NCBI GenBank assembly: GCA_000165345.1
Contig: CM000432.1
Coordinates: 64,001 to 128,000, forward strand
Reading direction: 5' to 3'
DNA length: 64,000 bases
Within the stretch, counting starts at the first letter, position 1. Each line of letters begins with the position of its first letter. The translations under genes were made by a program, and so were the position numbers. The notes under the pieces were generated by a model. It worked only from the letters and a program-made list of their open reading frames with translations. It ran no database searches and had not been told where the DNA came from. Below are positions 1 to 61,282 of this stretch, piece by piece.

Positions 1-800
1 AGTACGTTCCAGATACATTGCACAAAGTATTAAAGTCATTCATACGTTCTGGAAGATCTATACCAATGAATTTGATTAGCATTTATATCTATCAACTATT
101 TAGAGCAGTTGGATTTATTCATTCATTAGGGATATGCCATAGAGATATCAAACCTCAGAATTTATTAGTTAATTCTAAAGATAACACATTAAAATTATGT
201 GACTTTGGATCAGCTAAAAAATTGATTCCAAGTGAACCAAGCGTTGCATATATATGTAGTCGTTTTTATAGGGCTCCTGAATTAATGTTAGGAGCAACTG
301 AGTATACTCCAAGCATTGATTTATGGAGTATTGGATGTGTTTTTGGTGAACTAATTCTGGGAAAACCATTATTTTCTGGTGAAACATCTATTGATCAGCT
401 AGTGAGAATTATTCAGATTATGGGAACTCCAACAAAGGAACAAATGATTAGGATGAACCCACATTATACAGAAGTTAGATTTCCAACCTTGAAAGCAAAG
501 GACTGGAGAAAGATACTTCCTGAAGGAACTCCTTCATTAGCAATTGATTTATTAGAGCAAATATTAAGATATGAGCCAGATTTGAGAATAAATCCATATG
601 AGGCAATGGCTCATCCATTTTTTGATCATTTAAGGAATTCTTATGAATCAGAAGTAAAGAACAATAGTAATTTTCCACATGGAGTTAATCAGAACATACC
701 ACAATTATTTAATTTCTCACCATATGAATTGTCAATCATTCCTGGGAATGTTTTAAACAGAATACTACCAAAAAATTTTTCTCCGAATTATAAACACTAA
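1..800 (+). CDS. GSK3-family (CMGC) serine/threonine protein kinase, 5'-partial (window starts inside the gene; coding frame begins at nt 3).
   Basis: Translation contains catalytic-loop HRDIKPQNLL, DFG as 'LCDFGSAK', and 'SYICSRFYRAPEL', typical of GSK3. The ORF track starts at a TTG at 18, but the frame is open back to the window edge (YVPDTLHKV...). Stop at 798-800. Confidence 0.8.
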   Translation, partial: YVPDTLHKVLKSFIRSGRSIPMNLISIYIYQLFRAVGFIHSLGICHRDIKPQNLLVNSKDNTLKLCDFGSAKKLIPSEPSVAYICSRFYRAPELMLGATEYTPSIDLWSIGCVFGELILGKPLFSGETSIDQLVRIIQIMGTPTKEQMIRMNPHYTEVRFPTLKAKDWRKILPEGTPSLAIDLLEQILRYEPDLRINPYEAMAHPFFDHLRNSYESEVKNNSNFPHGVNQNIPQLFNFSPYELSIIPGNVLNRILPKNFSPNYKH

Positions 801-1618
801 ATTAATAAATTTTACCATTTTTTTTTTTAACAAGGCAAATCTTAATTAATTGTTTACATTAAAACTGTTGAGGTTTTATTAATTCTAAGATGAATTAAAT
901 ATAAGAGTCTTAGTATTGAAAAAACTAATGAAAATAAGAGGATTTAGATTATCACTCGTAATGTCATTTAAAGTTTGACAAGTAAATTTACTTAAGAATT
1001 CATCTTGAATTTAATTTATACAGTGCGTAATTCACTCTTAATTGATATCCTTAAAGAAATAATGGTAGATAAGTTGTACAAAATAGAGTTATAATTAACT
1101 AATTATTTTATAGATTGTTTAAAATTTATATTGGAAATTAATTTTAGAAAAATATCTGTAATATTTATTCGCTTCGTTTCTAATTAAACGAATTCACTTT
1201 AAATAGATCTAGAAAAGGGCTACAAAGTTTTTAAAAAAAACGCTGTATATTAAAAATTAAATAATTCATTGAAAACTACACTATATATACATACAATTTT
1301 TTGATTCAAAATTAATTGAAGGTGATTTTATTAAATTAGAATAAATATAATGTACACAAAATTCCCGCCTGATGTGGGGCAGAACATGTAAGTTAGGTGT
1401 CAAAATTATTAATAAAAGGAATAGCATGCTGTAAGTAAACTTGATAGTGGATAATCAGAATTAAATAAAATTATTTTTAATTAATATAAAATATATTATT
1501 GTTCAAGTTTGAGCTTGAAATATTCTCAATACAATATTTTTGGGATTGCCAGGAATTCTCATTGAGAAATTACTAATTAAAATTAAATTAGGTTGATTAT
1601 TTAAAAAGAAAAATTAAG

Positions 1619-2108
1619 ATGAGAAGTCCTTATGCTGAAGAAGTAGAATATTCTGAGAAATTTAATATGGATACGCATGAGTACAGGTAAATATAGCAAT
1701 ATCATTTAATTATTGAAAACAGTGATTAATTAAAATGATCTCAGATTTGTGAAGTTAACAAGGCCATTATATAAGAAACTTCAACAATACAGGTAAGTAA
1801 TTTTTATCATTTAATATATTTTAATGAAAATTACAAATGTTTTAGAGCAACAAGAGGGAATGGACCATTGATTTCAGAGGAAGAATGGCGACATGTATTA
1901 GGTAAGTTATTTACTTATTTAACCATTTGAATAATTTAAAAAATTTTTCTAAAAATCTTCAGGACTACAAATGAGCAGAGGATGGGTACACTTTTTGGAT
2001 TGGAAAAAGGAACCTTGGGTTTTATGTTTCAGAAGACCACAGGGAACAAATCCTCAAACAGGAAAAGTAGACAAATCTATGGAAAACATAAATCAAATGA
2101 ACAAATAA
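1619..2108 (+). CDS. CKS1: Cyclin-dependent kinase regulatory subunit CKS1, 4 exons: join(1619..1686,1745..1792,1846..1901,1963..2108). Absent from the ORF track.
   Basis: Spliced translation MRSPYAEEVEYSEKFNMDTHEYR|FVKLTRPLYKKLQQYR|ATRGNGPLISEEEWRHVLG|LQMSRGWVHFLDWKKEPWVLCFRRPQGT... matches the CKS consensus (Y-S-x-K-F...H-E-Y-R-x-V, EEEWRxLG, GWVH, EP..L.FRRP). All three introns have GTAAAT/GTAAGT donors and (T)nAG acceptors and are 54-61 nt long. Confidence 0.75.
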
Positions 2109-2691
2109 GTATTTTCAATTATTTATAATTAATATCTAAAATTTAGAGCGACGTTTTGGGTGGTCTGAAATTCCCAATAAATTCGAATTAGAATTATAAT
2201 TAAAAAATATAATTAATTTAAAATCTATAATTAACTTTATAAATAGCTGAGGTTTTTAATTTACGTCATCTTACACCTTTCCTTTTCCCCTCATCTTTTT
2301 TTTTCACTTTGAATTCTTTTAGAAATGTTCATCATAGAGTGTCATCTGGGTAACCCGCCCATAGTGGGCGCCAATTTGCACATATTTAAGGGGGAAGTTG
2401 GGTATCTTTTTAATATATAAAATTTATTAAATAATAAAATTAGCCAAATTATATTATTTGATATTAAGGCAATTTAAAAAGAATTAAAGAATTGTTCAGG
2501 AAATAAAATATTTAGGAGGGGAGAAATTTAGCTGATCAAGTGTTTTTGAATTCAGATAAATATATAAATTGATTATTTATATATTTGTAATATAAATAGC
2601 AGAATAGCTATATTATCAATTAATTGTAGGACAAAGAAAACAGTAGTAACCGAGGAGATAATTCAATTTTGGTAGAGACTTATTAGTAGAA

Positions 2692-3477
2692 ATGTCACGA
2701 AGATACGATTCTAGAACAACAACATTTTCTCCTGAAGGTCGATTATATCAAGTAGAATATGCATTGGAAGCAATTAATAATGCAGCTCCAACAGTTGGGA
2801 TACTTTGTAAAGAAGGAGTAATTCTGGGAGCAGATAAGGCAATAGTATCAAAATTACTTGATCAAGGAAAGTCACTGGAGAAAATTTATACAATAGATCG
2901 TCATATTATAGCTGCTGTAGCTGGTTTGACAGCTGATGCAAATATTTTGATTGCCCAAGCACGTATAGACTCTCAAAGATATCAATATACATATGGCGAG
3001 GAACAGCCAGTAGAACAATTAGTTACTCAAATATGCGATAGAAAACAAAGTTATACACAATTTGGTGGATTGAGACCATTTGGTGTATCATTTTTATTTG
3101 CTGGATATGATAAGAATTATGGATACCAGTTATATCAGTCTGATCCATCTGGTAATTTCTCGGGATGGAAGGCTACTGCGATTGGTCAAAATAACCAAAC
3201 TGCTACATCTTTATTGAAACAAGAATGGAACGAGGACTTAACATTAGAACAAGGTCTTCACTTAGTTGCAAAAGTTTTAACCAAGACTATGGATACAACT
3301 TCTCCTACAGCAGATAAATTTGAGTTTTCTATTTTGACTCACAATAATGAATCTAATAAGTGCAGCCAGAAAATTTTGTCTGAAAAAGAAATTGGGGAAT
3401 TGTTGGAAAAAGTCCAAAAAGAAATTGCTTCTGAAAATAATGCTAAGAATAACTCTGAAACTAATAACCAGAGTTAA
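2692..3477 (+). CDS. PSMA4: 20S proteasome alpha subunit, type 4 (alpha-3).
   Basis: N-terminus MSRRYDSRTTTFSPEGRLYQVEYALEAI is the canonical PSMA4 start. 261 aa; ATG at 2692. Confidence 0.85.
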   Translation: MSRRYDSRTTTFSPEGRLYQVEYALEAINNAAPTVGILCKEGVILGADKAIVSKLLDQGKSLEKIYTIDRHIIAAVAGLTADANILIAQARIDSQRYQYTYGEEQPVEQLVTQICDRKQSYTQFGGLRPFGVSFLFAGYDKNYGYQLYQSDPSGNFSGWKATAIGQNNQTATSLLKQEWNEDLTLEQGLHLVAKVLTKTMDTTSPTADKFEFSILTHNNESNKCSQKILSEKEIGELLEKVQKEIASENNAKNNSETNNQS

Positions 3478-4296
3478 GTGAATATATATTTATAGATATT
3501 TGTTATTACTCAAATTATTATTCATAATACAATTTCCTAATGTCTTCTGACATTGTATTAGAGAATTTTCCATAGATGTTTCAAATATCTTTATTATTAA
3601 CATTAGATAGGAGTAAATATATTAGTTTTCAATTCAAATTGGTAGTTTTATCTTTATTAGTTGTTTTCTATTCTGTTTGTTTGATGTACGTATTAATTCT
3701 AAAACTTTGTCAAGTATAGTCTAGTTAATATTAAGTTAATAATTCAAAGTATAAGATACACACGTAATCAATTTTCTTTCAAAAAAAGGTCCAGTTGATA
3801 TCGAGAATTCTTATCCTATATATCAGCTCTAAATATAAATATCATTAAAAGTTAAATATTAAAATACTTTATTTAATCAACTTTGTAATCATTTAGTCAT
3901 TGTTTACTATTCATCCTAAAATTCACGGTAACAAACAGCTAAATCATATTGTTTTTATCCTGTCATTTAATATTTAATACATTTGGTAAATTAATTCAGT
4001 TAAATCGAATTAAACAATATAATGTGGAGCCATAAATAAAGACTAAACATGAATATCAGGAATTTATGGCGCCAAAAAGTAATAGTGGGTTCTTTGATTT
4101 TATGTATTACGGTAGGTATAAATATAAGAAAAAATAATCAAATTAAGCGAGAGGAGAGATAAGATTTGCTGGTAAAAAGATTGCAAATCTGAATAATTCA
4201 GGATTAATAATAAAGCAGGCCATAGGTCGAAGTAGGTTTGGAAGGAGTTATACAAAGTAATCCAAGTGAAGGGTATAGAAATTGCACTTTAAAAAG

Positions 4297-4320
4297 AAAT
4301 AATAATAATAATAATAATAA
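4297..4320. repeat. (AAT)8 microsatellite immediately upstream of the Sec31 ATG.
   Basis: aataataataataataataataat read directly. Confidence 0.9.
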
Positions 4321-4335
4321 TTGAAATTTATTTCA

Positions 4336-8891: not shown

Positions 8892-9749
8892 TTAAATGAT
8901 TTTACTATTCTTTTGAAATTTACTGATATGATTCTTCCAAGATTGTTGTTTCTGTTTTGCTTGAGTTTCAAATATTTCATTTTTTTGTTGTTTTTTAATA
9001 ACCGAAATTTTTTTCTTCTTTTCAAGTTTAGTCTTTTCTGTGTCGTAAGACTTAATTAAAAGATTTTCAGGTATTTTATATCCAGCAGGAGTGGTAATAA
9101 TTGATGTGGAATCCAACGAATCGATAGTTTTATCGTGATTTAAATTGTTTCTAGAACTTTTACTAATCATTCTGACCCTATCATATGTAACATTTTCTTC
9201 TTGATTATAATCCAAGTATTTAATATTATATCCATTTTTAGTTAAACCAACAATTACAGAATTGTACCAATTACCATCTTCTTCAAATAAAACTTGAACC
9301 TTTTCTCCTACAGATAATCCCTTAAATTGTGGTAAAAGCTTTAAATCCTGAAATTGCAAACTAATTGTTTCTGGAATTTGACCAAATATCGAAATTAAAT
9401 AATAATCATTTATAGTGTTAGAAGCTGATTTTGGGTCTTTTGATTTAATTCTCCCAAATCTTTTGTTTCCTTTATAAAAAACTTCAACAATTTTTCCAAT
9501 ATTTACATCTTCAGGATTTTCATCACTGTTTTTCCTTTTATTATCAATAAGTTCCTCCACTAGTTGTATAACTTGTATTAAATCATCTCTAACTTCTTTA
9601 AGAATATCATAATTTGGGTCATCAGTCGTTAGTTTTAGAAGTTGTTCATCTATCTTTCTTAGTTGTTCCTGATTATCTTCAAATCTTTTTAACAATTCCT
9701 CATATGTTTCTTGAAAAATCTCCATTAATTTACTATTGACACGTGTCAT
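8892..9749 (-). CDS. SPF30/SMN-like Tudor-domain splicing factor.
   Basis: N-terminal coiled segment (EELLKRFEDNQEQLRKIDEQLLKL...DDLIQVIQLVEELI) resembles the SMN/SPF30 N-terminus. A central Tudor-like fold follows (GEKVQVLFEEDGNWYNSVIVGLTKNGYNIKYLDYNQEENV). ATG at 9749-9747 lies inside the palindrome TGACACGTGTCA. Confidence 0.5.
   Translation of the reverse strand: MTRVNSKLMEIFQETYEELLKRFEDNQEQLRKIDEQLLKLTTDDPNYDILKEVRDDLIQVIQLVEELIDNKRKNSDENPEDVNIGKIVEVFYKGNKRFGRIKSKDPKSASNTINDYYLISIFGQIPETISLQFQDLKLLPQFKGLSVGEKVQVLFEEDGNWYNSVIVGLTKNGYNIKYLDYNQEENVTYDRVRMISKSSRNNLNHDKTIDSLDSTSIITTPAGYKIPENLLIKSYDTEKTKLEKKKKISVIKKQQKNEIFETQAKQKQQSWKNHISKFQKNSKII
9737..9748. promoter_or_regulatory. Perfect 12-bp palindrome TGACACGTGTCA (E-box/G-box core CACGTG) overlapping the start codon of the SPF30-like gene; a second identical copy lies at 16008..16019.
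   Basis: Read directly. The reverse complement encodes ATG ACA CGT GTC A = MTRV at both loci. Confidence 0.5.
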
Positions 9750-9922
9750 CCCGCCACATGATTAATTATATGTAGTGGGAAAATTTTAATAAAAATAATG
9801 AAAAATTATCGCAAATATTAAAGATTCAAATATATCTTTTGGTTGATATACAATATTAGAAACCAAGTTTGAAATCGACTTTAACAAATTTTTTTTTGTT
9901 TTAATTAATTTAGGAAGTGAAA

Positions 9923-11710: not shown

Positions 11711-11995
11711 TAACTAGGGCAATAGGATATATTTTAATTTATATTTTTTCCGGGGTTTAAAGCTTTCAACCTGCATTTTTTTTATTTGTTAATTTTGGCG
11801 CGTAAATCCTATTTTTACACAAACTTTTTTTTGAATTAATCTTAACCAGAAAAATTTACTAAATACATTAATAAATCATAAAGTAGTGAAATAAATTGAG
11901 CATTTAAGATTAATTAACTTAATTGATTAAATTCATTAATATCTATAATGTTTCTTAATTTCTAATTATTAATATTGGAATATTATGTTGCTCAA

Positions 11996-14197: not shown

Positions 14198-14450
14198 ACT
14201 AAGAAATTATTACTTTAAAAATAGCTACTAGTGAAATTATTTTACTAATTTTGAATATGTATAGAATATTCGCTTTTTGAGTAATTTTAAAACTAAAATC
14301 AGTTTTTTTTTGTAAACTGGAAGAAAAAAAATCCAATTATTTTAATTCATTATCTCTGAGATTTCACTATTAATAAATTCCAATGCATTACTTCCACCAG
14401 ATAACCAGTTACTTCCATAAATACCATGGAAACCTAAAGAAATTATTAAA

Positions 14451-15895
14451 TTATATAAAATGAGTTATTTTTTGTTGATTAAGAAAATTAATAAACTCAC
14501 CAGTAAATATTTTCAATTTGACATTTACTTTTAATTTTAATAAAATTTCATACATTAACCTTCCCTCATCATAAAGTATATCACTTTTCATTAACACAAT
14601 ACTTGTTTTTGGGAATTTCCTGAGAATATTTGCAGGAGCTAATAAAGGTTGTGATCTCCAATCAAAATAGTTTTCTATATACTTAGATTGATATTGTTTT
14701 TCAAACCATAATAATGAATTCAAATTTAAAAATCCAAATCTAAAGTTTTTTAATTTAGAATTTGTGATACACTTTTGGCATAGTGCAGGATATATTAATC
14801 CCAAGAATTTAACATGATCAACCCATTTACAATAATTATGATATTTTTTTGTTAAACTATTGTTACGTCTCTTATTTTGATCTTTAATACTCAAACAGGA
14901 TGCAATTGAAGATGTTGCTAAATTACCTCCAGCTGAATCTCCTAAAATAACAAGCTTATTTGGATCTAATCCAAATTTTTCTGCATTACAATGTATCCAT
15001 GAAATAGATGCAATAACATCTTCCAATGGTATTGGATACCTCCATTTTGGTGACTTTCTATATTCAATATAAGCAATAACACTTGGTTTATTTAATTTTC
15101 CTAATTCAATTGCATGCCTTTGTAATGTTCTTTCATATGTATCAAAATCGCCAAATACAAATCCTCCACCATGAACAAATATTACAATTCCTGGAGATTC
15201 TGTTTTGCTATCTATATTATGAGTAGAAATATTATCATTTTCATAAATAATCTTGACTTTTGACTCATTAAAATATAAGTCTGAACAGAATTTTTTTGTA
15301 GAGCATTTTATTGGTCTAGTAAGATTTTGTTTTAATTTATAATTCCTCTCTAATAATTCTTTACTAACTATAAAGTTGACAACAAGATCATCCTTATTTA
15401 TTTGTCTATCCATATCCATTGAAATACCATCAGTTAGTTCGCCAAATTCATCAAATTCAATCCAGTGCCTATTTCCCATAATATTTTCAATCTCTAAAGA
15501 TTCATATTCATCTAAAACGTTCCATTCTTTATTTTCACCATGACCAATATTGTGTTCAACAATAATACCCAAATCATTTTTACTTGAAAAACCAAAGATC
15601 AAATTTTTGTAAATAGAACAATCACCTTTTCTAAACTTTTCTATTTCTTCATAATTATCGAGTGAAACTACATTTCTAAATAATGTATATATATAAATCG
15701 CTCTTCCAACAATATTCTCTGTTAATGTTAGATTATCTTCATTGAATAAATTATATATTATTATTCTAAAAAATTATTATAAATATCTCTTCATTACTTG
15801 TTTAGTTACACCAATTCAATGACTTACCCTATTAATAATACTATAATTACAGTATATTTTCTTTTTAAAATTCTTGTTATATTCATTTGACTCAT
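14451..15895 (-). CDS. Alpha/beta-hydrolase (hormone-sensitive-lipase/arylacetamide-deacetylase family) esterase/lipase, 2 exons: complement(join(14451..15765,15828..15895)).
   Basis: Oxyanion-hole HGGGF and nucleophile elbow GDSAGG are present. The ORF-track start is a TTG, and the frame stays open upstream without ATG to an AG acceptor at 15767-15766. The upstream exon ATG...ATAGG|GTAAGT encodes MSQMNITRILKRKYTVIIVLLI(G), a signal/anchor-like hydrophobic N-terminus. Confidence 0.65.
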
Positions 15896-16007
15896 TTTCC
15901 TAAACTATTAAAATCAACAAAATATTACTAAAAAATTTATAAAAAAAATGTTTTCTATTTATCTTTCATTTCAGTACACAAAAAAAATATTACAGTTTTT
16001 AATTGAC

Positions 16008-16019
16008 ACGTGTCATGTG
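16008..16019. promoter_or_regulatory. Second copy of the palindrome TGACACGTGTCA, ~115 bp upstream of the lipase gene start (minus strand). A further half-site acgtgtca lies at 16065-16072.
   Basis: Read directly. On the minus strand it gives ATGACACGTGTCAATTAA = MTRVN-stop, a 5-codon mini-ORF identical to the first five codons of the SPF30-like gene. Confidence 0.45.
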
Positions 16020-16207
16020 GGGAAGTCTTTTGCATGTATACAATCTAACCGGTATTACGTGTCAAGTGGTCGAAAATTATTAAAAAAAATTAGTATTAAA
16101 AATAAACTTATACAAATTTAAAGTAATTTTTGTACAAATATTAGAGAAATTATGAATCGTTTAAAATAGTTAAATTATAGCGATAAACATTTTCTTCGGT
16201 TAATGGT

Positions 16208-17236: not shown

Positions 17237-17698
17237 AAAAAATAGTGTTGCATATACATAAATCAATGAATTCGAGTTTTGAAACTTTCACAGATATAAT
17301 AATATTACTTTGCACTTGTTCGAATTGATATGTTAGTTAATTTATTTGCAACTTAGCAACTTTTAAAATTTTATCTTTCCAAAATCAGAATTAGATATAA
17401 ATTTTTTGCAAAATACTAAATTATATTTTCAGAAATCAATTTCTATAAATATTTACTCAAAGAAATAGAAATTATCCAACTTTTCCACTACAAAGATCTT
17501 ATAGCTCACTTTTTCACCTAGGCCGACATAAATTTAATAATGATCAGTTTTAGCGCCAATGAAATTTCTTTTTCCATTGAAATTCTTAAATATTAAAGCA
17601 AGCAGTTAAATAGTCAAAAAAGCCCCATGGCGGGAATTTTTAAAATATTAAAATAAGAAAAATGCAAAACAAAAGTTATAGAATGTTCTAAAAAAAAC

Positions 17699-18487: not shown

Positions 18488-19058
18488 TTTTATATATAAA
18501 AATTTTTAATAAATCGCCCTTCGGCCTTGCTAATTTCAATATCAAATATAGAAACTTTCAGAATATCAATTTAAACAAATTTTTTTGCAATTCTATTAAT
18601 TCCCTAGTATTATCTGAACTCTTTATTGAAACTTGAGTTAATAAATTCTTCTTTTATCAAGCCTGCCGAGTCTCGAATGATATAATACCAATCCAAGCGA
18701 GACCTCGACTGGACTAAATAGTGACAAATTCTATAAGAAGCAATTACAAATAAAGAATTCTTCACTTTACTTTTATTCACAACTTAATCCTTTTTCGACT
18801 TTTGTCCTCACAAAAATATTACAAAGCTATGAGGGGAATTACTTTGGGCGCCGAAAAAGCTTATGTCTAATTTATAGCATGCAGAATTAGAAACATTTAT
18901 AACTTAAGAAAAAGTAATCGAGGAGAAGATAGAAAGCGAAGTTAAGGAAGTATGTAGCAATATATAATACAATTTATAAATTTGTCGATAATTGGCATAC
19001 TATATGTAATACTATTAGTAATCAATCGGAAAATATTAAAAGAAATAATAAAGTTGAA

Positions 19059-19517: not shown

Positions 19518-19691
19518 ATTCTTCTGAATTAAGAAGCCTATCTCATAAGTTAGTTAATATAAACCATTCAAATCACTTTTTCTAAATAATTAACTTTAAC
19601 AATAATAATTAAGCATAATAAATGACTTGTCCTTTGAAAATAATTCTTCTAAAAAATGGGCGCCAAAATGTTGTGGCGATGGATTTTAATG

Positions 19692-21515: not shown

Positions 21516-21917
21516 CGATGCAAGGCTTTCCCACCCTATCACACTTAATGTATTCTAGCTCTAATTTGCAGGATCTCCTGCAAATAATTTATTTGGAATC
21601 TTTTTTCCGCTTAGCTGCTAATAAATTATTATTCCTAAAGTTAATATTTTTTTTTAGCGTTCATAGTTACTATTGACCCTCCTTTAACTAAAATAAGCCC
21701 GCCAACACCCGGTTAATATGTTTGAATAATTTCAGATCGCACCTAAAGGAATATTCATATTTGCTAATAAACGAACAAGAAATAAATTAGAAACAAAATT
21801 CAAGTATAAAAAACTTATGAATAAATTTGGAAACTTTTAATTCATTTCTTTTTTGAATTTCATTTTTCAAACGTAGAAAAAATCTGAAAGTTTAATTAAT
21901 TATATTACTCTTATAAA

Positions 21918-22763: not shown

Positions 22764-23282
22764 ACAAGTATTTATGTAACTTTTTTATTATCACATTGTT
22801 ATTATTTTTATTGATTTTTTTCAGAATTAACTAAGATTGGTATATTCATGATTATAACATAAAATTGAATTGTTTTATATTGGCTATTTCCCTTATTTAT
22901 AAAATACATATATTACAAATGGATTTTTTTTTCGTTTAGTTTTTCAAATGCATTATTGCTTTTCAATAAGTCATATTAATTAATTATCTTTTTTCATTAA
23001 ATGTTATCCGATTCTCAAACCTAAATCAATAATTAAATATTTCTTCTATTCATATTTATTTATATATTTTTTCTTTTCTTAATATTAAGTTACCAGCCCA
23101 GATTAAAAGGCGGGAACTATGTGAGTCTCATAAAAATTTGGAATGTTTTTCTAGAGTGAGGTTACCTAACTTAGTGGAAAAAAAAAATTAAAAAAAAGAA
23201 AGGAAATACAAAATAAAAAAATTCAGTTAATAAATGAGCCATTTTTTTCAAAGAAGCAATCTTGTTGAATGAATGGGAGAAT

Positions 23283-25964: not shown

Positions 25965-26499
25965 TGAACAGATTGAACAAAAAAGTTATTTTGTTCTTAA
26001 ACATATCTAATATTGACCTTACTGCTATTAACTTGTTTTTAATATACTAATATCGTTCAAAATCAATATCTATATAAAAATCAATTTTATTTTTCTTTGC
26101 CTTCTGCCTAATTGTTTATTTGCCAATTTAACTAATTGGGCTTGGCGCCATACGTGTTCTGCATGCAATATTTTTATTAATAGGAAATTAACTTGGAATG
26201 GTTATAAGGAGAAATTATTGCAAATCTTTTAATTATTAAGTTTATTTTAAATATATAACAAAATTGATTTTCAGCTAATAACAAGAGTCACTATAATATA
26301 AAGAAGAATTAAAAATAAATAATAAATAGCCATTTGAGGGGGAAAGTGGGGGGTTGGTGGAGCAGAAAACACTAATAAATTAGAAGAGAATTTAGAGAAT
26401 TGAAACTAGATAAAAGCTAATTCAGATGATAGTCTAGTATATCATTAATGGAATCTGTGTGAAACGTAAAAAGTAACTAAGGGATCAGATGAGGCAATT

Positions 26500-28170: not shown

Positions 28171-28999
28171 TGTCACATTCTTTCTGTAAAGAGGATCTTT
28201 AACAAGTCTTAGACAGAGATAGGAAAAAAAACATCTCAAATAAACATTCATCATTTAACTTTTGACAACTTGCCATTAAATTCAGAAGAAAAACATCTCA
28301 TTTTTAAATCATCTACAATAGAAAAAGAGAAATTTTATACCTGTAAAATCCCTCTTCTCTAATATACTAGGAAAAATTAAATTTAAATTAATCAGGTATT
28401 TGTTTCTCACAATATTTGCTAAATTTCAAAAAATAATTAATTTAATGGCGGGAAATTTCCCAAAAGGTTTTAAATTATAAATATATATTTTTTGGTTCTT
28501 TAAGAACCGAATTTGGAAATTGGAAATACCAGGAATTTTTTTTAAACTTAGTAAAATCATATCTTGAAAATTAGATTTGGTAACCTTTGAATCCCATCTT
28601 CCCTTGCTTAATAGTATTTAGAAAATTATTGCTACTTTTAGACTCCAGAGCTTTATTGCGCCAAAGACACATAGGAATTAAAGTCAAGAAAGGAATCATC
28701 CATATCTAAAAGTCTCTGTTTATTCTTACTATAAATCAATGGAAATAACTGCAAATTCTTCAGATTCAGAACATAAAAGTGATCATTTGAATATTTAATA
28801 TATTAATTGTTAATATTTATTTCAAGTTTTTAAATATTTTATTACTATTTGGGCGAATTTATATATATGCGGAACTTATTTGTTTAGGAAGAAAAAATTA
28901 GAAAAAGATAAATAGCTAATAAATATGATGATTCAACTGAGCAGAAAATTGTTTTAATTTTAAAAAAACAAAGAATTAGCAGTCACTTGATCGAGTAAA

Positions 29000-30733: not shown

Positions 30734-31183
30734 AACATTAATAATTACATAAATTAATATTTTTTATTTACAATGGAGACTTGAAAAGGTTTGGAAGTTG
30801 ATTTTTTCAAGAAGATTTGATGTCTAATTTTGATTGAAATTACTTGTATTAGTATTTTGCCTTGATTTATCTTAATTTCATTATTTAAATTATTCATTGA
30901 TTGTTTATAATGCATTTGATATTAATGAATCATTTACCAATTTTGAAATAGTATTATTTGAATTTGAATTAGTGGGAGGTTTGGTCTAATTCAATAGTCT
31001 TTCTATTCTATTCTGTTTTTCTATAACCTCATTTTTTTTTATAATTACTGACCACTCGGCTTCTTTGAATCAATATTTAACTCCTTTTTATCCCATTACA
31101 AATATACGTGTGTGGCGCCAAATTTGAAAAAAAAAAATGAATTAAATTAATAAGAGAATAAAGTAATTAGTGTGCCTATAAAA

Positions 31184-32331: not shown

Positions 32332-32777
32332 AAGTGAGGAAGAGCTTAGTAACAAAAATAGTGAACAAACTCAATTACATACTTTAATTTTTATCATTTT
32401 CCTACTCTGCTTCTATCTTCTTACTCTATTGCATTATTTCCCCCCTGCATTACACTCCGGTACCGATATTTGGCGCCTAGTGCATTTAACATTTTGTGAG
32501 GTGAAAATAGCAACTTAAAAGCAAAAAAGGTATGAAATAAATTGCATTTTACTTGTAATTTGACAATGGATAAATAATATTTTGAAATATTCGTGGGGGA
32601 TTCTTTAATTAATTTTTTATTACAAAAATAACAAATAATATTGCAAAGAATCAAACAACTTTTATTCTCTTTAAATTAAAATTACTAGAAATACATAGAA
32701 ATAGTAATCGAATTAAAAACTTAATTTAATGTTAATTAAGTGCAAAATCTATAACCTGAAAAGAACTGAATAATAAA

Positions 32778-34277: not shown

Positions 34278-34929
34278 TCAAAAGAATCAGATATATCAAA
34301 TGAGGAAATTCTACATTTTTTTTTTGGAAAAAAATATATCCGATACCTTTTGATACCATATAATACTTTTTTAAAATTTTATCCATGAATTTATTATTCA
34401 AATTTAGAAATAATATCCTACTTAAATGGATAATATGTCATAAAGACACTAAAGTCTCTCTCATATTATATGGAAGTCAGTAGGTGAATCATTAATTACA
34501 ACAATTCCTTTATTATATGTCCAATGCCATCATTCCAAGTTATTACTTTCCTTAAACTAAGAATTTTGTAAATTGGACAATACAATTTTTCTCTTCAAAT
34601 GATTAATTCATTAAATATATAATTCCATTCAGAAAGTTAATGAACTCAGATAATGGCAAAATAAGTATCAACACTGGATTTACAATAATTTCAGAAGCCA
34701 AGCGTTAATTGGAAGTTTATCATCATAGTAATTAACTTTCTGAATTATGAGATTTGAACTCCATAATAATTTGTATTCACTTTCCAAAAAAAAAAGAAAT
34801 AGTTTACATTTAGGATTGATAATTTAAAAATATAACTAATAATTTACTTGATGTCAAAGTGTAATGTACTTATGTATATATATATATAAATATATATAAA
34901 GTTAATTAATATTAATTAATTCTTTATAT

Positions 34930-36263: not shown

Positions 36264-36288
36264 CACGTGGCGCCGTTTCTTGGCGCCA
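36264..36288. promoter_or_regulatory. Tandem GGCGCC-core motifs (cacgtGGCGCCg ... tTGGCGCCAcc) in the DOHH/GDT1 divergent promoter.
   Basis: Two copies 12 bp apart, the first fused to a CACGTG E-box. The same TGGCGCCA-type palindrome lies 100-400 bp upstream of most genes in the window. Confidence 0.45.
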
Positions 36289-39743: not shown

Positions 39744-39833
39744 TTCTACGTTATCAATATATAAATATTGTTAAATAAATATATATTTATATATTTATTT
39801 ATATAAATTTTCATGCTTTTCAAAATTATTTTA

Positions 39834-39870: not shown

Positions 39871-40415
39871 TTAATTAATATATTTTTATTTTACATTTGA
39901 TAAATCTTAAATATTAAAAAAAAGAGTTTGAATAGTTTGCCTAATTAGAAATTACAACAAAACTCTATTATATCTTTGTCCTTAACTTTTTATTATTTAT
40001 CTGTTCACCATTTTCTTCTTTCTTATGAAATATCTTTAAAAATTCATATTTATTATATTTATATTTGTAAATATACTTTTCTTTTTTTTAAAAAAAAAAA
40101 AAGTCATTCTTAAAATTGTAATGCAACTTTAACTTCATGTGGATGAGCACCGGTATATGATTTTTTTTTTCAACAAAATGTAAAAATGTTAGAGCATGTC
40201 AAAATTAGTCATTTAGGCGGTAATAATTTTGTCATTTGGACAAAAGAATCCAATAATAAAAAAAGTCAAATAATAATTACAATTAATTGATAAATAAATA
40301 AATATGAAGAATGAAACAACAAAAGTTTATTGATTAAGTTTATTAAGTTGATTTGAGTAAAATTGTTTGAAAATATTCTTAAGAAGCTGATAATTTTGCA
40401 AGTTTAATAAACAAA

Positions 40416-43400: not shown

Positions 43401-43859
43401 GAAGATATGATTTTATTCCAAAATTGGTCAATGAATAAGTTTCAAGATAAAAGTAATGATCTAATTAATGATACTTTTGAAAGAGCTGAATTTAAAAGAA
43501 ATCATTCCAATTATAGACACTCTTGGGTATTTCCTCCAGATTTCCCATGCTTTGATGCAATTCATGCAATGAAAAATCCAAATATTATTTCAAATTTTAA
43601 ACCAACCTTTGGTAAAATTGATAAAAATTCAACTATTGAATTAATTACAAATAATACAAATCTAACTCATGAAAAAGTATCTCTAATTATTGATCCAATC
43701 ATTAAAAATCAAAATAATAAATACAAACAAACAAAAATTGATGAATTCTTAATTCAAAATCAATCTATTAAATTTAATCATCATCATATTCAAAAAGATG
43801 AAAAAGTTGCATCCATTATTTCTAAAAGAATGAAAAAGGCTCTAAATCATCTCAAGTAA
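40416..43859 (+). CDS. XPG/Rad2 (ERCC5)-family structure-specific nuclease.
   Basis: XPG-N domain at the start (MGVKGLWDIVAPSG...IDASIWLKQF...VFDGTPPDIKKRTLELRR). A long acidic spacer with a tandem EQEPEQEP repeat. XPG-I and H3TH domains near the C-terminus (LLKALGIPWIDSPGEAEAQASILTQ...DSDCLIFGA...ILLGCDYTVGVNGIGPVNAVEVL). Confidence 0.75.
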   Translation: MGVKGLWDIVAPSGIRVKPETLEGQILAIDASIWLKQFLMGLKDKEGKIPQGAHLLGFFKRLCKLLYYGILPVIVFDGTPPDIKKRTLELRRMQREMSEINMRRVANKLLLNTIRLRVAKKVKDKVRKRKDKKLSDEEYKNQIDNGESEEEKEEEQVQEQEESESEEINQSATINDKNKVEYKSKRKAHHSIQEKISLTPKLFSSEDENNITDDDEDVYNRPNRKFKKYGRYQQVHHLINETEENSEAPTSYFPVMGFLSERRRLDEMPEIDTNLFSMPIQISSSQKIASKKMTKIEDLNAFLRATESSNDERRLMDLPLDTEIDPQVFEQLNSKLQYEILIQLRDAWINALRSNAVDTKDNMSQFSNSQIECYLRYLRINQEIERLKVRMAKECEEEQMESVNEEIKVVEYGQIYDPDNNDFNNNIQDCSSSSIFEDQSKETINEEFNIDLNIDDSTFTGKIINFSKKIGMDNKDIDTFNRNDTLLSSDTLSMKGYHNLSKITKKERIKFLQSTDYTKNDNIVSNPLNTPLFELEKLLNNENIQESQIQNKVNNTFNDINDIERLELLKENVDELFKINEPIQKFEEKDDGFIVDIENRVYQNEDDKEVNKKDDFGNEGFDDSCDDDDDDDWQDIEWESANTILTKPQENNFDSLQVIKSIILSNDLVSNIEPKLDSILGLEKIEENDESKQEQVILIDSEEIKEQKNDIYLIEDSGKHEDGFKKTEVGQFEGQIQDLEPEKEQEQEHQSEQEPEQEPEQELEHEPDQDQDQEQKPEQEPERQPELEQEPEPDQKQEHQPEPDLEPELLDYSYLEDIKEIIQKEDEQIMDMNLFSDHYAIYDKNLDEILFELEKEQEELSLEFTKHDIILNSEITKEMQYQICLLLKALGIPWIDSPGEAEAQASILTQLNICHGVLSDDSDCLIFGAKKIFRNFFSGNSVEMYDLNQVKKYLGIEKQEQFYILAILLGCDYTVGVNGIGPVNAVEVLKAYPELEDMILFQNWSMNKFQDKSNDLINDTFERAEFKRNHSNYRHSWVFPPDFPCFDAIHAMKNPNIISNFKPTFGKIDKNSTIELITNNTNLTHEKVSLIIDPIIKNQNNKYKQTKIDEFLIQNQSIKFNHHHIQKDEKVASIISKRMKKALNHLK
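42640..42850 (+). repeat. In-frame tandem hexa/octapeptide repeat (EQEPEQEP / EPEQEL...) inside the XPG spacer region.
   Basis: Repeating gaacaagaaccagaacaa units; translation EQEQEHQSEQEPEQEPEQELEHEPDQDQDQEQKPEQEPERQPELEQEPEPDQ. Confidence 0.85.
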
Positions 43860-51123: not shown

Positions 51124-51863
51124 CTTTTCCTTTATTTCTTAAACTAATATTTCTCACTGATTAAATTCTATTTTACTGTAACCTTTTTTATTTATGATAA
51201 TTAAAAACTTTAAAAAGAAAATACATATATGTTTAATAATATATATATTACATACGTAAATACATACTTGTTAGTAAATTATTTCCAAGACAAATTAGAG
51301 AATAAAATCCATTCATCCAATTACTGAATTAATATTCACAAAGTCCCACTTACAATTTACCATATATATCCTGAAAGTCTTCTTTATAAAGAAAATATAT
51401 TATTTATTACTAAATTTCTTTTTTTATTCACACCCCGAGGGTATAAACCTATTAACCGCCTGGCGCCACAGTCTTTAATTATCATTTTTTTTTATTATTT
51501 CTTGATTTTCATTTTTTCTTTCCTTTTTTGGCTTTGTGTCAATTTATCCTTTAATCAATTCAAATTTCTGTATAATGTTGAAAATTGTGCTCTTTATTTA
51601 TTCTATTCTATATTATATTTTCCTTCCAATATTTTTGCATGTGGACAATACTTGCATGCATGTTTGCAGTTAATTTATTGTATAAATTACGTGTCAAAAA
51701 TAGTAATTATATACTTATTTTTCAAATTTATGATTAATTAAGTAGTTAAAAATAATTAATATTATTTTAGTAATAATTCGAAGCATTAATTTTAATTGGG
51801 TTAATATAAATAAAACAAGTATAAATTTTACTTATACTAACTAAAACATTTAACTATGAGATC

Positions 51864-51899
<36 letters not shown>

Positions 51900-52401
51900 T
51901 CATCATTAGGGATGTATAAATAAGTTTTCCTTATTTTAACTTGTGAATCTATCTATATTATTAATTCATATTTTTGCTCTTTCAAAATATTTTTTTCTTT
52001 TTGCGGCTAATATTTTATTTTAGCTGAAAAATTTACTATTTTTTTAATTTATTTTAAATATTTACTATAAAAAAAAATTAATCATAAAAGTAACCAATTT
52101 TTTGGCGGGAAATTGACTTAATCTTAATGCCTAATTAACTAAATGAAGGGAAAAAAAAAAGAGAATATATAAGACAAAGAAAAAAGGCTAGTGATAATTT
52201 ATCACTTCAGTAAATTATTTTGATTGTTGGATTTATATAGAACAGTATTGGATTTTCATGCAGTCTGTTGCTTTCGAAGTTTCGAAATAATAATCAACAA
52301 AGAAGCCACTTTGTTTTATTTAGTAGTCATTTAAACAAAAAAAAAAGTGTGTAAAGATATTCTTAATACTTAAAGTTCAATTCACCTACTACTAAGAATA
52401 T

Positions 52402-54554: not shown

Positions 54555-54738
54555 GTTTAATTCCTAGCAACAAAGAAAGTTCTTATTTAGACTTTAGTCG
54601 AAAAAAATCAAATCTAGTTTCCTTAAAGAAACTTTTTCCTTTTTACTATGAAAAAAAAATTTACTACTCCCACGCTTAATTTAATTAATTATATTTGCCT
54701 TTTTGTCTCCATTATTTAATTATATATTATTTTTAGAG

Positions 54739-54780
54739 ACGCCAATTATTTACATCAAGGCGCCACAACTATGGCGCCTT
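54739..54780. promoter_or_regulatory. Triple GCGCC-core motif cluster upstream of the ribosomal protein L18 gene.
   Basis: gacGCCAAtt, aaGGCGCCAca and atGGCGCCtt within 42 bp, ~190-230 bp upstream of the eL18 ATG (minus strand). Confidence 0.4.
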
Positions 54781-55045
54781 GCTCGGTATTTAATTTGATC
54801 TGCAGTAGTAATTAAAAGAAAAGGTAACTGAAATAGACGTATAATTACTTTAAACTAGAATATAAAATGAGAATATACTTAGAATGTACATGTTGTGTTA
54901 TTTTTGACTATAATATTTTTCTTTTTAATTAATATAACAGAAACTAGCTTTTTTGGTGTCTTAGATACTAAAACACAACACTATCGGAGAATTTATAAAG
55001 TTCTTTTAGATTTTCGTTGCTATATAAAGTAAAATCCTGATATTG

Positions 55046-59077: not shown

Positions 59078-59317
59078 GGAGTATTCTGCTATTTAATACT
59101 TGACCATCCGAAACAGGTTTCTTGTTTATTCTAATACTTGAAAAAAAAATTTGGGTAAGATAAGGATTTTCTTACCCTTCAGGTTAGAAGAATTTATTAT
59201 TATTAATGTTTCTTCTCTACCTAATTTTTATATTTAAATATATTTTCCCTCTTGCTCCTTTTCGTTTTTATTAGCTATTACCCCACACTGTATGTCTATA
59301 TTGGAGTTAAATCAGTT

Positions 59318-59340
59318 CAGCGCCAAATTTTGCATGCATG
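59318..59340. promoter_or_regulatory. Composite cagCGCCAAattt + TGCATGCATG element upstream of the coiled-coil gene; a similar TGCATGCATG lies at 51654..51663 upstream of PA200.
   Basis: TGCATGCA is the widely conserved apicomplexan AP2-type promoter motif, seen here at both loci within ~250-550 bp of minus-strand ATGs. Confidence 0.4.
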
Positions 59341-61282
59341 TGATGCCCGCCTTAAATTAGGGCAACTTTGCATATAATTAGGGAGCAAGAATATTAATTT
59401 AAGATTAAACAGATAATACTAAAAAATAAATTAAGCATATGAAAATGTGTTGGAATATTTAAATAAAAAGGATTCAATATATTAGAATGTTTTTCTGAAA
59501 AAATGAGTTGGGTATATTGGCCTTGATTAAAATAAGAAAGTATCTACTCTGAAAGAATAAGTTGTTAAAACTGCATCTACGAAATTGAATAAACTTTTGG
59601 AATAAAAACTAGCTATTTTAATTAAACAAGAAACCCCCACAAAAAATATATGTGGAACTCACATGCACTAAAAAGGATAAGTTGCAGGTACCGTTGTAAT
59701 AATTTGCATGGAACTGTGTAGGTATCGAAACAATTGTGGTATCTTATTAAAAGCGCAATTGATCAGTGTGAAAGAGCTTAACACCCACTATTATGCTTAA
59801 TGCACAACCCCCTAAAAGCTAGAAAACGAGCAATACCAAATAAATCATGATATCTAACACAAATAAAAAAGGTTTGTCAAGTTAGACGTTACGTCTTGTA
59901 GAGCATTGCACCTATACAGGACGTTACGATGACGTCGTCCCAAAGAGACAGAGACAAAATAAGATGCAGCTTCCTGATGTAAGAATCTTTCCAACTCCGT
60001 TGTCCATCTAAGAGCGAAATCATGAATCACAATCTCAATTTTTTCTGAAAAAAATCAATGTTTGGATGATATGCAATAAATTTTATTTGATCAGTAATTT
60101 TATATTTAGCGCTTCATTTTCGTGAGATTTGTGTTGCGCTATTATTTCTTGATCCAAATTCATGCCCTCCAGTAATGCTGATTTTAAATATGTTTGTCAA
60201 CTATGTCCAATAAATTTGGTTTGTTACCTTAATTTTGAAGCTATCTATATCAATAAAACTGAGTAAAGGTAAATGATGTGAATATATTAACATTTACAAC
60301 AGTTCAAAAATGTTTTAACTATGAAGAAACGATACAAAGATATTATGGGTTTATTAATTAATTCAAGGTGTTTTTCCAATTTTACTTATCGCAATATTTG
60401 ATAATTTAATATCATTAAATCAATTGTAAATCATCAAATTTGAAACTAAAGTTTGGCGCCAATTGATTTTTTTTGCCACCATTTTTTAGAGGTTACAGGT
60501 GAAATTGGAGGATGAAGTGAACCATATAACACCGAATATTGAGGGATTGTAGAATCTTATTTGCTATATTCTCAATTTGTTACAATTACTGCTTCCCTAT
60601 TCATCCAGCCTAGCCTTTCTTTTGTTTATAATCATACCTCTTTAACAATCCACATGGTTGCCGCCAAGCATGTTCCGATATTGCCAATAGTGCAAACTTC
60701 CACATACCCATGGCGGCACATTTGTTTACGTTGTGTCTACATGTGGCGCGCCAGCGGTTGTATTGTTATTAGAATTAATTGAATTAGCAAGGGAATCTTA
60801 ATAATATTTTGAAAATAAAATCAAAGTAGAATAGGAAGTGTTTGTGGGCAAGGTAAGGATATTGAAACTGGAATATATTCATATTTTGGAGAGTGATCAA
60901 ATCCTGAGCACTTCCCCACCTGTGCATTTGAACAGCATAGAGCATATTTTTGTATTATCTATAATATCAAGTTGCTGAGGTGAAAATTAAGTGGTAGCAT
61001 AATAGGAAGAAGTGATCGTTTCATTATACTTAATCTTTTCTAATACAACAACTATTCTTTATATCAGTTTATGCAAGAATTCTTGGTTTTCTTCTGAAAC
61101 GGACTATTTTGTGTATTATAAATACAAATCAACTCGATGATTTATTGTTGAAGCAACTATCTGTGGTAATAAGTATAATATATGTTTTGATTAACCCGAT
61201 CAATTAGGGGTTTTGCTTTAAACTTTAGAAATAATCCTTGATTGAGAAATCAGGCGAGGATAAGAATTTTTACATTACTATA

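What the first reader, a model, noticed from the sequence alone, without database searches (positions are those of the whole stretch)
800..60800. A GGCGCC-core palindrome (TGGCGCCA) or GGCGGGAA half-site lies 100-400 bp upstream of almost every gene
Motif instances occur at 1363, 2355/2366, 4066, 11794, 17627, 18844, 19657, 23106, 26143, 28446, 28660, 31113, 32469, 36269+36281, 51461, 52101, 54741-54778, 59318, 60453 and 60744. Read against the gene map, nearly all fall in 5' intergenic regions. They appear once per unidirectional promoter and often twice in bidirectional ones. The sequence resembles the E2F/DP site (TTTSGCGC). Such GC-rich palindromes stand out against ~70% AT background and match the overrepresented E2F-like upstream motif described for Cryptosporidium. 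Here it is not restricted to replication genes: ribosomal, proteasome and trafficking genes carry it too. That suggests a general core-promoter role rather than cell-cycle-specific E2F control.
Basis: partly seen in the sequence, partly recalled or inferred. Interest (0 to 1): 0.55.

Follow-up and report, generated by a model that had tools for sequence, protein, structure and literature searches.

The report
Known Cryptosporidium E2F-like promoter motif
The GC-rich palindrome upstream of nearly every gene in this Cryptosporidium parvum window is real, far beyond chance and conserved across the genus, but it is the E2F-like promoter motif already described for this parasite.

Summary
The window is Cryptosporidium parvum DNA. 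GGCGCC occurs 13 times and GGCGGG 9 times. All 22 lie in the 12.7 kb of intergenic DNA that borders a gene start. None lies in 49.7 kb of genes or in the 3'/3' spacers (shuffle expectation 0.17 and 0.24).

Of 26 gene starts, 25 have at least a 5-base core upstream and 23 have a 6-base core. The median distance to the ATG is about 296 bp.

The motif is kept in orthologous upstream spacers of C. ubiquitum, C. xiaoi and two further species. Those spacers are otherwise barely alignable, yet each gene keeps its own motif-to-ATG distance.

The motif and its genome-wide spread are published, including its presence at ribosomal protein genes and in open chromatin (PMC3734150, PMC4117751, bioRxiv 10.1101/2025.01.17.633476, PMC12246861). 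Binding by E2F/DP is still inferred, not shown. A strict "core promoter" role is not supported, because distance to the ATG varies and orientation is free.

The parts
1362..1369 (-). GGCGGGAA (reads TTCCCGCC on +), 252 bp upstream of the CKS gene ATG
   Evidence: same site kept in C. ubiquitum at 252 bp
2354..2372 (.). Doublet CCCGCC + GGCGCC, centres 13 bp apart, about 330 bp upstream of the proteasome alpha gene
   Evidence: doublet kept in C. ubiquitum
4067..4074 (.). TGGCGCCA, 265 bp upstream of the Sec31-like gene
   Evidence: kept in C. ubiquitum and L020
9750..9755 (-). GGCGGG (CCCGCC on +) in the short Tudor|UFL1 divergent spacer, abutting an ACGTGTCA palindrome
11793..11802 (+). TTTTGGCGCG, 197 bp upstream of the PP2A-B56 gene ATG (11996)
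   Evidence: TTTTGGCGC kept in C. ubiquitum and L020
17553..17559 (.). GCGCCAA, 319 bp upstream of the NF-YB-like gene (minus strand)
17629..17636 (+). GGCGGGAA, 395 bp upstream of the NF-YB-like gene
18847..18852 (.). GGCGCC, 362 bp upstream of the Rab GTPase gene
19659..19664 (.). GGCGCC, 144 bp upstream of the 152-aa gene
21698..21703 (-). GGCGGG (CCCGCC on +), the single site in the TBCC|281-aa divergent spacer
23109..23116 (+). GGCGGGAA, 172 bp upstream of the 893-aa TPR gene
   Evidence: GGCGGGAA kept at 170/199/193 bp in three species
26143..26150 (.). TGGCGCCA, 353 bp upstream of the SET-domain gene
28447..28454 (+). GGCGGGAA, 551 bp upstream of the MFS transporter gene
28658..28664 (.). 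GCGCCAA, 340 bp upstream of the MFS transporter gene
31113..31120 (.). TGGCGCCA, 67 bp upstream of the CDP-alcohol phosphatidyltransferase gene
   Evidence: a site at 58/75/68 bp in three other species
32472..32477 (.). GGCGCC, 303 bp upstream of the 499-aa TPR gene
36269..36288 (.). Doublet GGCGCC + TGGCGCCA, centres 13 bp apart, shared by the divergent HEAT-repeat and GDT1 genes
   Evidence: 13-bp doublet kept in C. ubiquitum
40216..40220 (+). Weak site AGGCGGT in the ORC5|XPG divergent spacer, 198 bp upstream of XPG
   Evidence: AGGCGG is an invariant run in the four-species alignment
51456..51468 (.). CCGCC + TGGCGCCA, about 340 bp upstream of the PSME4 (proteasome activator) gene
52104..52111 (+). 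GGCGGGAA, 296 bp upstream of the Nup54 gene
54759..54778 (.). Doublet GGCGCC + GGCGCC, centres 14 bp apart, about 210 bp upstream of the ribosomal protein L18 gene
59320..59351 (.). GCGCCAAA and CCCGCC, 245-272 bp upstream of the 1343-aa gene (minus strand)
60454..60461 (.). TGGCGCCA in the 2.2-kb divergent spacer, 825 bp upstream of the 1187-aa gene ATG
60661..60752 (.). Cluster CCGCC (60661), GGCGG (60712) and GGCGCGCC (60745-60752), 534-620 bp upstream of the 1187-aa gene ATG

Best explanation
These sites are instances of the published Cryptosporidium 'E2F-like' upstream motif, (T)TTGGCGCCAA(A) and GGCGGGAA. They most likely act as binding sites for the parasite's E2F/DP winged-helix heterodimers.

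Proposed mechanism (inferred):
- One E2F and one DP subunit each contact one half of the GC core. This explains why the preferred form is a palindrome flanked by T on one side and A on the other.
- It also explains why the site works in either orientation and why one site can serve two divergent genes.
- The bound factor marks or activates the promoter from a proximal position, typically 150-400 bp upstream of the ATG.
- It does this for the great majority of genes whatever their function, so in this organism E2F/DP behaves as a near-general promoter factor rather than a cell-cycle-specific one.

Shown here:
- the sequence and its flanks;
- the strong enrichment;
- the strict restriction to spacers that contain a gene 5' end;
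- conservation of presence and of gene-specific distance to the ATG across species.

Taken from the literature:
- C. parvum encodes two E2F and two DP proteins;
- the motif dominates open chromatin in sporozoites.

Inferred and untested:
- that E2F/DP is the binder;
- that binding activates transcription.
For: Organism: searches give exact protein matches to C. parvum assemblies, named by NCBI.

Enrichment and location:
- 22 of 22 six-base cores lie in 5'-containing spacers, against about 0.4 expected. None lies in genes or in 3'/3' spacers.
- E2F-type words are the top-ranked enriched 6-, 7- and 8-mers in 5' spacers.

Form: one search shows T-rich 5' and A-rich 3' flanks, and GGCGGGAA in both orientations relative to the gene.

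Conservation:
- the motif is present in 8/8, 8/8 and 7/7 orthologous 5' spacers of C. ubiquitum, C. xiaoi and GCA_009792415.2, against about 1 by shuffling. It is never found in convergent spacers of any species.
- those spacers are only 38-47% identical between C. parvum and C. xiaoi.
- the motif-to-ATG distance correlates between species (r = 0.85 and 0.92; permutation p = 0.003 and 0.002). It is better kept than the distance to the upstream gene's end (42-48 bp vs 88-92 bp mean difference), which anchors the motif to the downstream gene.
- the motif is kept in a second block of genes, including in a 46%-GC relative.

Literature:
- PMC3734150 names the motif, links it to E2F/DP and reports it upstream of ribosomal protein genes.
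- PMC4117751 finds it upstream of 161 of 200 expression clusters and counts it among the over-represented upstream motifs that are not AP2 binding motifs.
- bioRxiv 10.1101/2025.01.17.633476 finds it to be the most prominent motif in ATAC-seq peaks.
- PMC12246861 lists the E2F and DP genes.
Against: - No experiment has shown that Cryptosporidium E2F/DP binds these sites or that the sites drive transcription. The 2025 review (PMC12246861) states that very few regulatory components are validated.
- No pRb orthologue is known in C. parvum (PMC3734150), so the canonical regulatory circuit is absent.
- No transcription start map was available to me, so the position relative to the start site is inferred from ATG distances and a published mean 5' UTR (PMC2722674).
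- In tandem spacers the motif could in principle also serve the upstream gene's 3' end.
- In C. andersoni only 5 of 8 orthologous 5' spacers have a 5-base core and 1 of 8 a 6-base core, so reliance on the motif is not uniform across the genus.
- The sample is one 64-kb window plus two syntenic blocks.
Confidence: 0.8

Rival explanations
1. The motif is a real promoter element, but it is bound by a factor other than E2F/DP. Candidates are a C2H2 zinc finger, a Myb/SANT protein or a lineage-specific protein that recognises a GC-rich palindrome. The likeness to the E2F consensus would then be coincidental.
For: - Binding has never been tested (PMC12246861).
- The motif's use is far broader than in any canonical E2F regulon: 25 of 26 genes here.
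- The expression profiles of the E2F genes do not track ribosomal protein gene expression (PMC3734150).
- The pRb partner is absent (PMC3734150).
Against: - The match to the E2F consensus extends beyond the GC core to the T/A flanks and includes both classical variants, TTTGGCGC and TTTCCCGCC.
- Cryptosporidium is reported to be the only apicomplexan genus that retains E2F/DP and also the one where this motif dominates upstream regions (PMC3734150, PMC12246861).
- The motif is counted among the over-represented upstream motifs that are not AP2 binding motifs (PMC4117751).
Confidence: 0.12
2. The motif marks transcript 3' ends or boundaries between closely packed genes, acting as a terminator or insulator rather than a promoter. 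It appears 'upstream' only because most spacers are tandem.
For: In the 14 tandem spacers the motif lies between one gene's stop codon and the next gene's start. Some sites are closer to the upstream stop than to the downstream ATG, for example 19659 (32 bp from the TBCC stop) and 11797 (86 bp from the UFL1 stop).
Against: - There are zero sites in all convergent 3'/3' spacers of five species. These total about 5.6 kb in the TBCC-XPG block, and further convergent spacers elsewhere in the window are also empty.
- Sites are present in every divergent 5'/5' spacer.
- Across species, distance to the downstream ATG is conserved about twice as well as distance to the upstream gene's end.
- The motif coincides with ATAC-seq peaks annotated as upstream regulatory regions (bioRxiv 10.1101/2025.01.17.633476).
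Confidence: 0.03
3. The pattern is a by-product of base composition, for example GC-rich words being tolerated in spacers and avoided in AT-biased coding sequence, and has no function.
For: None beyond the a priori possibility. Genes show 0 six-base cores, but only about 1.2 were expected, so there is no measurable avoidance in genes.
Against: - The 5' spacers are more AT-rich than genes (24-26% vs 30% GC) yet carry all the sites.
- Class-specific dinucleotide shuffles expect 0.17 GGCGCC against 13 observed.
- The motif is retained in orthologous spacers that have otherwise diverged to near-random identity.
Confidence: 0.01

Closest known systems
Cryptosporidium parvum 'E2F' upstream motif family (Oberstaller, Joseph & Kissinger 2013, PMC3734150; first noticed on chromosome 6 by Bankier et al. 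2003 as cited there)
   Same: - Same organism and same sequences: 5'-TGGCGCCA-3', [C/G]GCGC[G/C] and GGCGGG.
- Same location in upstream regions and same breadth of target genes, including ribosomal protein genes.
- Later found to dominate sporozoite ATAC-seq peaks (bioRxiv 10.1101/2025.01.17.633476).
   Different: Nothing essential. This window only adds local detail that I did not find stated in the papers I read:
- absence from 3'/3' spacers;
- cross-species retention with gene-specific distance to the ATG;
- 13-14-bp doublets;
- one conserved promoter that lacks the motif.
Canonical E2F/DP binding sites of animals and plants (TTTSSCGC; Zheng et al. 1999 structure and Arabidopsis TTTCCCGCC/TTTGGCGGG sites, as cited in PMC3734150)
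   Same: - GC core with a T-rich flank.
- Palindromic form that fits a heterodimer of two winged-helix domains.
- Promoter-proximal location.
- Function in either orientation.
   Different: - In animals and plants the sites define a cell-cycle/DNA-synthesis regulon controlled through pRb-family pocket proteins.
- Here the motif is upstream of about 25 of 26 genes of all functional classes, and no pRb orthologue is reported (PMC3734150).
- Binding by the parasite proteins is untested.
Promoter-defining general regulatory factor sites in compact genomes (for example Reb1/Abf1/Rap1 sites in budding yeast; comparison from my own knowledge)
   Same: - A short, specific site present at a large fraction of promoters of unrelated genes.
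- Located in nucleosome-depleted DNA upstream of the start site.
- Often shared by divergent gene pairs.
   Different: - Different protein family and different sequence.
- A nucleosome-excluding or pioneer role for the Cryptosporidium motif is only suggested by the ATAC-seq co-occurrence and has not been tested.

Membership tests
Cryptosporidium E2F-like upstream motif (PMC3734150) | Sequence 5'-TGGCGCCA-3' / [C/G]GCGC[G/C] / GGCGGG | tested here: met
   6 TGGCGCCA, 13 GGCGCC, 9 GGCGGG, 16 SGCGCS.
Cryptosporidium E2F-like upstream motif (PMC3734150) | Over-represented in regions upstream of genes | tested here: met
   22 of 22 six-base cores lie in 5'-containing spacers (expected about 0.4). 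They are the top enriched k-mers there.
Cryptosporidium E2F-like upstream motif (PMC3734150) | Source organism is Cryptosporidium | tested here: met
   proteins are 100% identical to C. parvum proteins as named by NCBI, and the locus is found on 1.1-Mb chromosomes of C. parvum assemblies.
Canonical E2F/DP binding site | Consensus TTT[C/G][C/G]CGC with a T-rich flank, often palindromic | tested here: met
   the base 5' of GGCGCC is T in 18 of 26 symmetrised flanks, and positions -2 and -3 are also T-biased. GGCGGGAA is the reverse complement of TTCCCGCC.
Canonical E2F/DP binding site | The organism encodes E2F and DP proteins | not tested
   The genes lie outside this window. The literature lists cgd1_1560 and cgd6_1430 (E2F) and cgd7_3650 and cgd8_1850 (DP) (PMC12246861, PMC3734150).
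Canonical E2F/DP binding site | Physical binding by E2F/DP | not testable with these tools
   I found no published binding assay. PMC12246861 states that most components lack validation.
Canonical E2F/DP binding site | Targets are mainly cell-cycle and DNA-replication genes under pRb control | tested here: not met
   the motif is upstream of ribosomal, proteasome, trafficking, transporter, nucleoporin and lipid-synthesis genes. The ORC5|XPG spacer has only a weak site. No pRb orthologue is reported (PMC3734150).
Core promoter element in the strict sense (TATA, Inr, DPE type) | Fixed distance to the transcription start site | tested here: inconclusive
   No start-site map was available. Distance to the ATG ranges from 67 to 825 bp (median about 296), against a published mean 5' UTR of 137 +/- 116 bp (PMC2722674). 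The distance is nevertheless gene-specific and conserved between species.
Core promoter element in the strict sense (TATA, Inr, DPE type) | Orientation fixed relative to the direction of transcription | tested here: not met
   the main form is a palindrome, the asymmetric GGCGGGAA form occurs in both orientations relative to the downstream gene, and single sites serve divergent pairs.

The most novel reading that the evidence does not exclude
The E2F-like palindrome may be the promoter-defining element of nearly all Cryptosporidium RNA polymerase II promoters, not merely an abundant regulatory site. It would be placed at a gene-specific, evolutionarily fixed distance from the start of each gene. 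An ancient cell-cycle factor (E2F/DP, without Rb) would then have been co-opted as a general or pioneer transcription factor. A small, conserved minority of promoters would lack it and use a different element, ACGTGTCATGTGG, as at the hydrolase gene here.
Probability: 0.35. Interest if true: 0.5.

Novelty: already known. Interest (0 to 1): 0.15.

Why it matters
The motif is of real biological interest. Cryptosporidium is reported to be the only apicomplexan genus that keeps E2F/DP, and it seems to run most of its promoters through one GC-rich palindrome. That bears on how transcription was organised before AP2 factors took over in the phylum, and on how promoters are defined in a very compact genome.

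This is already the stated view of the field (PMC3734150, PMC4117751, PMC12246861, bioRxiv 10.1101/2025.01.17.633476). The window therefore adds a clean local illustration and a few details rather than a discovery:
- strict absence from 3'/3' spacers;
- conserved motif-to-ATG distance across species;
- 13-14-bp doublets;
- a conserved promoter without the motif.

The open question is experimental: who binds the motif, and what happens when it is mutated.

Tried and rejected
- **Composition artefact.** Rejected by class-specific dinucleotide shuffles and by retention in diverged orthologous spacers.
- **3'-end or boundary role.** Rejected because all convergent spacers in five species lack the motif, and because distance to the downstream ATG is conserved better than distance to the upstream stop.
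- **Avoidance of the motif in coding sequence.** Not demonstrable: 0 observed against about 1.2 expected.
- **Orientation bias of GGCGGGAA relative to the gene.** None seen: 3 in one orientation against 4 in the other among unidirectional cases.
- **Rfam scan of the whole window at gathering thresholds.** It found nothing.
- **Bankier et al. 2003 (PMC403770).** I tried to read it for the first report of the motif, but it is not held.
- **Published transcription start map, to place the motif relative to the start.** I found only a mean 5' UTR length.
- **C. felis locus L019.** Its gene calls were too patchy to use for spacer classification.
- **The parasite's E2F/DP proteins.** I did not retrieve them to check their DNA-contact residues. 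They lie outside the window, and a homology search seeded with a metazoan E2F would have been swamped by animal hits.

Full report
**What the window is.** The window is 29% G+C and densely packed with long, mostly intron-free eukaryotic genes. The proteasome alpha, UFL1, MFS and Nup54 proteins encoded here match exactly proteins called on 1.1-Mb chromosomes of several assemblies. NCBI names the 100%-identical proteins Cryptosporidium parvum. I took the gene map from those annotated assemblies. It gives 27 genes, 20 intergenic regions that contain at least one gene 5' end (14 tandem, 6 divergent), 5 convergent 3'/3' spacers and one convergent overlap.

**Check of the observation.**
- Whole-window counts far exceed dinucleotide-shuffle expectation: TGGCGCCA 6 vs 0.10, GGCGGGAA 5 vs 0.17, GGCGCC 13 vs 0.40, GGCGS 55 vs 9.6.
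- All 13 GGCGCC and all 9 GGCGGG/CCCGCC lie in the 12.7 kb of 5'-containing spacers. None lies in 49.7 kb of genes or in 1.7 kb of convergent spacers.
- Shuffling each class on its own expects 0.17 and 0.24 in the 5' spacers. These spacers are more AT-rich than the genes. The binomial p is 3e-16.
- In an unbiased word count, E2F-type words are the top 6-, 7- and 8-mers in the 5' spacers. They are followed by poly(A/T), TGCATGCA, GTGGGG, ACGTGT and GAGAGAGA, most of which correspond to other motif families already published for this genome (PMC3734150).
- Nineteen of 20 5' spacers have a 5-base core and 18 have a 6-base core. That covers 25 of 26 gene starts, 23 of them with a 6-base core.
- Twenty-five of 31 sites lie 100-400 bp from an ATG. 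The median is about 296 bp and the range 67-825 bp.

The statement about one site per unidirectional and two per bidirectional promoter is only partly true. Three of six divergent spacers share one site and a fourth shares one tight doublet.

**Anatomy.** Flanks are T-rich on the 5' side and A-rich on the 3' side of GGCGCC, giving roughly TTTGGCGCCAAA. The asymmetric form is GGCGGGAA(A/T)TT, the reverse complement of TTTCCCGCC. It occurs in both orientations relative to the downstream gene. Three spacers carry two cores 13-14 bp apart (2354/2367, 36269/36282, 54759/54773). The 13-bp spacing recurs in C. ubiquitum.

**Evidence from related genomes.** Orthologues of two proteins led to syntenic loci in other species. 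These were C. ubiquitum, C. xiaoi, the species of assembly GCA_009792415.2, C. andersoni and an unnamed 46%-GC relative.
- In the TBCC-XPG block, every 5' spacer of the three intestinal species keeps the motif (8/8, 8/8, 7/7, against about 1 by shuffling). C. andersoni keeps a 5-base core in 5 of 8 and a 6-base core in only 1 of 8.
- No convergent spacer in any species has a site, and genes have almost none.
- These spacers are only 38-47% identical between C. parvum and C. xiaoi, so the motif stands out against diverged sequence.
- Each gene keeps its own motif-to-ATG distance. Examples are 67/58/75/68 bp for the CDP-alcohol transferase gene and 353/360/367/393 bp for the SET gene.
- Correlation between C. 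parvum and the distant species is r = 0.85 and 0.92 (permutation p = 0.003 and 0.002).
- Distance to the downstream ATG is conserved about twice as well as distance to the upstream gene's end. In tandem spacers this ties the motif to the downstream gene.
- The second block (kinase-TBCC) gives the same picture in C. ubiquitum and in the 46%-GC relative.

**The exception.** The alpha/beta-hydrolase gene (14342-15895, minus strand) has no GC core upstream in C. parvum, C. ubiquitum or the 46%-GC relative. Instead all three keep (TG)ACACGTGTCATGTGG, at 16004-16020 in the window, and C. parvum and the 46%-GC relative also keep a second ACGTGTCA. The same ACGTGTCA palindrome abuts the weak CCCGCC in the short Tudor|UFL1 spacer (9737-9755). 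ACGTGTCA occurs 6 times in the window against 0.21 expected, always in 5' spacers.

**What it is and how it probably works.** This is the motif published as 'E2F (5'-TGGCGCCA-3')', together with [C/G]GCGC[G/C] and GGCGGG, as the most over-represented upstream motif of C. parvum. It is reported upstream of ribosomal protein genes and of clusters peaking at every time point (PMC3734150). It lies upstream of 161 of 200 co-expression clusters and is counted among the over-represented upstream motifs that are not AP2 binding motifs (PMC4117751). It is the most prominent motif in sporozoite ATAC-seq peaks, more than half of which are annotated as bidirectional promoters (bioRxiv 10.1101/2025.01.17.633476). 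Cryptosporidium is reported to be the only apicomplexan genus retaining E2F/DP, with two E2F and two DP genes (PMC12246861).

The best explanation is that an E2F-DP heterodimer binds the palindrome, one winged-helix domain per half-site, and marks or activates the promoter in either direction. Binding and activation remain untested (PMC12246861). No pRb orthologue is known (PMC3734150).

**On the 'core promoter' idea.** The breadth of target genes in this window supports a general rather than cell-cycle-specific role: RPL18, proteasome alpha, PSME4, a Sec31-like gene, a Rab, Nup54, and MFS, SET, GDT1 and B56 genes. The literature had already drawn that conclusion.

A strict core-promoter element is not supported. 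Distances to the ATG vary more than tenfold, orientation is free, and single sites serve two genes. With a published mean 5' UTR of 137 +/- 116 bp (PMC2722674), the motif would sit on average about 150 bp upstream of the start site. The conserved gene-specific spacing does suggest positional constraint, which a start-site map could resolve.

**Rivals.**
- A different binding factor cannot be excluded without binding data (about 0.12).
- A 3'-end or insulator role is contradicted by the empty convergent spacers and by the anchoring to the downstream ATG (about 0.03).
- A composition artefact is excluded.

**Verdict.** The identification as the Cryptosporidium E2F-like motif is correct. The 'general role' reading is right but already published, and the 'core promoter' wording overreaches. 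Novelty is 'already known' and interest is low.

The small additions from this analysis are:
- strict exclusion from 3'/3' spacers;
- positional conservation across the genus;
- the 13-14-bp doublets;
- the weaker form in C. andersoni;
- the conserved promoter that lacks the motif and carries ACGTGTCATGTGG.

Noticed in passing
window 16004-16020 and 16057-16064 (hydrolase 5' spacer); 9737-9748 (Tudor|UFL1 spacer); 51689-51696: A second promoter word, ACGTGTCA, occurs 6 times in the window against 0.21 expected, always in 5' spacers. It takes the form of the 12-bp palindrome TGACACGTGTCA at two places. The one promoter that lacks the E2F-like motif (alpha/beta-hydrolase gene) carries ACGTGTCATGTGG, and this is conserved in C. 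ubiquitum and in a 46%-GC relative. I did not find the word in the text of PMC3734150.
   Followed up: partly
window 34639-34731, minus strand (convergent spacer between the 499-aa TPR gene and the HEAT-repeat gene): An unannotated box C/D snoRNA. It has a C box (UGAUGA), a guide AAUUAACGCUUGGCUU followed by a D' box (CUGA), a C' box (UGUUGAUA) and a D box (CUGA). All of these are conserved in five Cryptosporidium species. The best Rfam match is snR61/Z1/Z11 at 29.8 bits, E = 0.018, below the gathering score. It lies downstream of the HEAT-repeat gene on the same strand and has no E2F-like motif of its own, so it may be co-transcribed with that gene.
   Followed up: partly
window 34412-34487: A second conserved block lies in the same convergent spacer. 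Two near-invariant 20-25-nt arms (CCTACTTAAATGGATAATATG ... CATATTATATGGAAGTCAGTAGG) can form a hairpin around a variable loop. There is a compensatory C-G to U-A change in C. andersoni. No Rfam family matches it, and its class is unknown.
   Followed up: partly
window 59078-61282: An unusually long (2.2 kb) divergent spacer with no called gene, no ORF above 73 aa and no Rfam hit. It holds three separate groups of E2F-like sites (59320-59351, 60454-60461, 60661-60752). The sites nearest the 1187-aa gene are 534-825 bp from its ATG, which suggests an unannotated transcript, a long 5' UTR or an upstream exon.
   Followed up: no
L016 (C. andersoni), orthologous block TBCC-XPG: In the gastric species C. 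andersoni the six-base palindrome is nearly absent: 1 of 8 5' spacers, against 5-7 of 7-8 in the intestinal species. Only CCGCC/GGCGG cores remain, in 5 of 8 spacers. Motif use may differ between the gastric and intestinal lineages.
   Followed up: no
L020 (Logan run SRR31860986, 16-kb contig): A contig with 46% G+C encodes orthologues at about 62% protein identity in the same gene order as C. parvum. It keeps the same E2F-like sites (for example TTTTGGCGCGCGAATCC against TTTTGGCGCGTAAATCC). It appears to come from an unnamed, unusually GC-rich Cryptosporidium-like organism.
   Followed up: no
window 2354-2372, 36269-36288, 54759-54778: Where two cores occur together, their centres are 13-14 bp apart. 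The 13-bp spacing is kept in C. ubiquitum at two loci. This may reflect two dimers bound side by side. The sample is too small for a statistical test.
   Followed up: no
window 43852-43859: The stop-proximal ends of the convergent XPG-like gene (+) and the PSME4 gene (-) overlap by 8 bp in the long-ORF reading. Annotated assemblies differ on the PSME4 3' end (2423 aa against 2396-2397 aa), so there may be a terminal intron or an annotation discrepancy.
   Followed up: no
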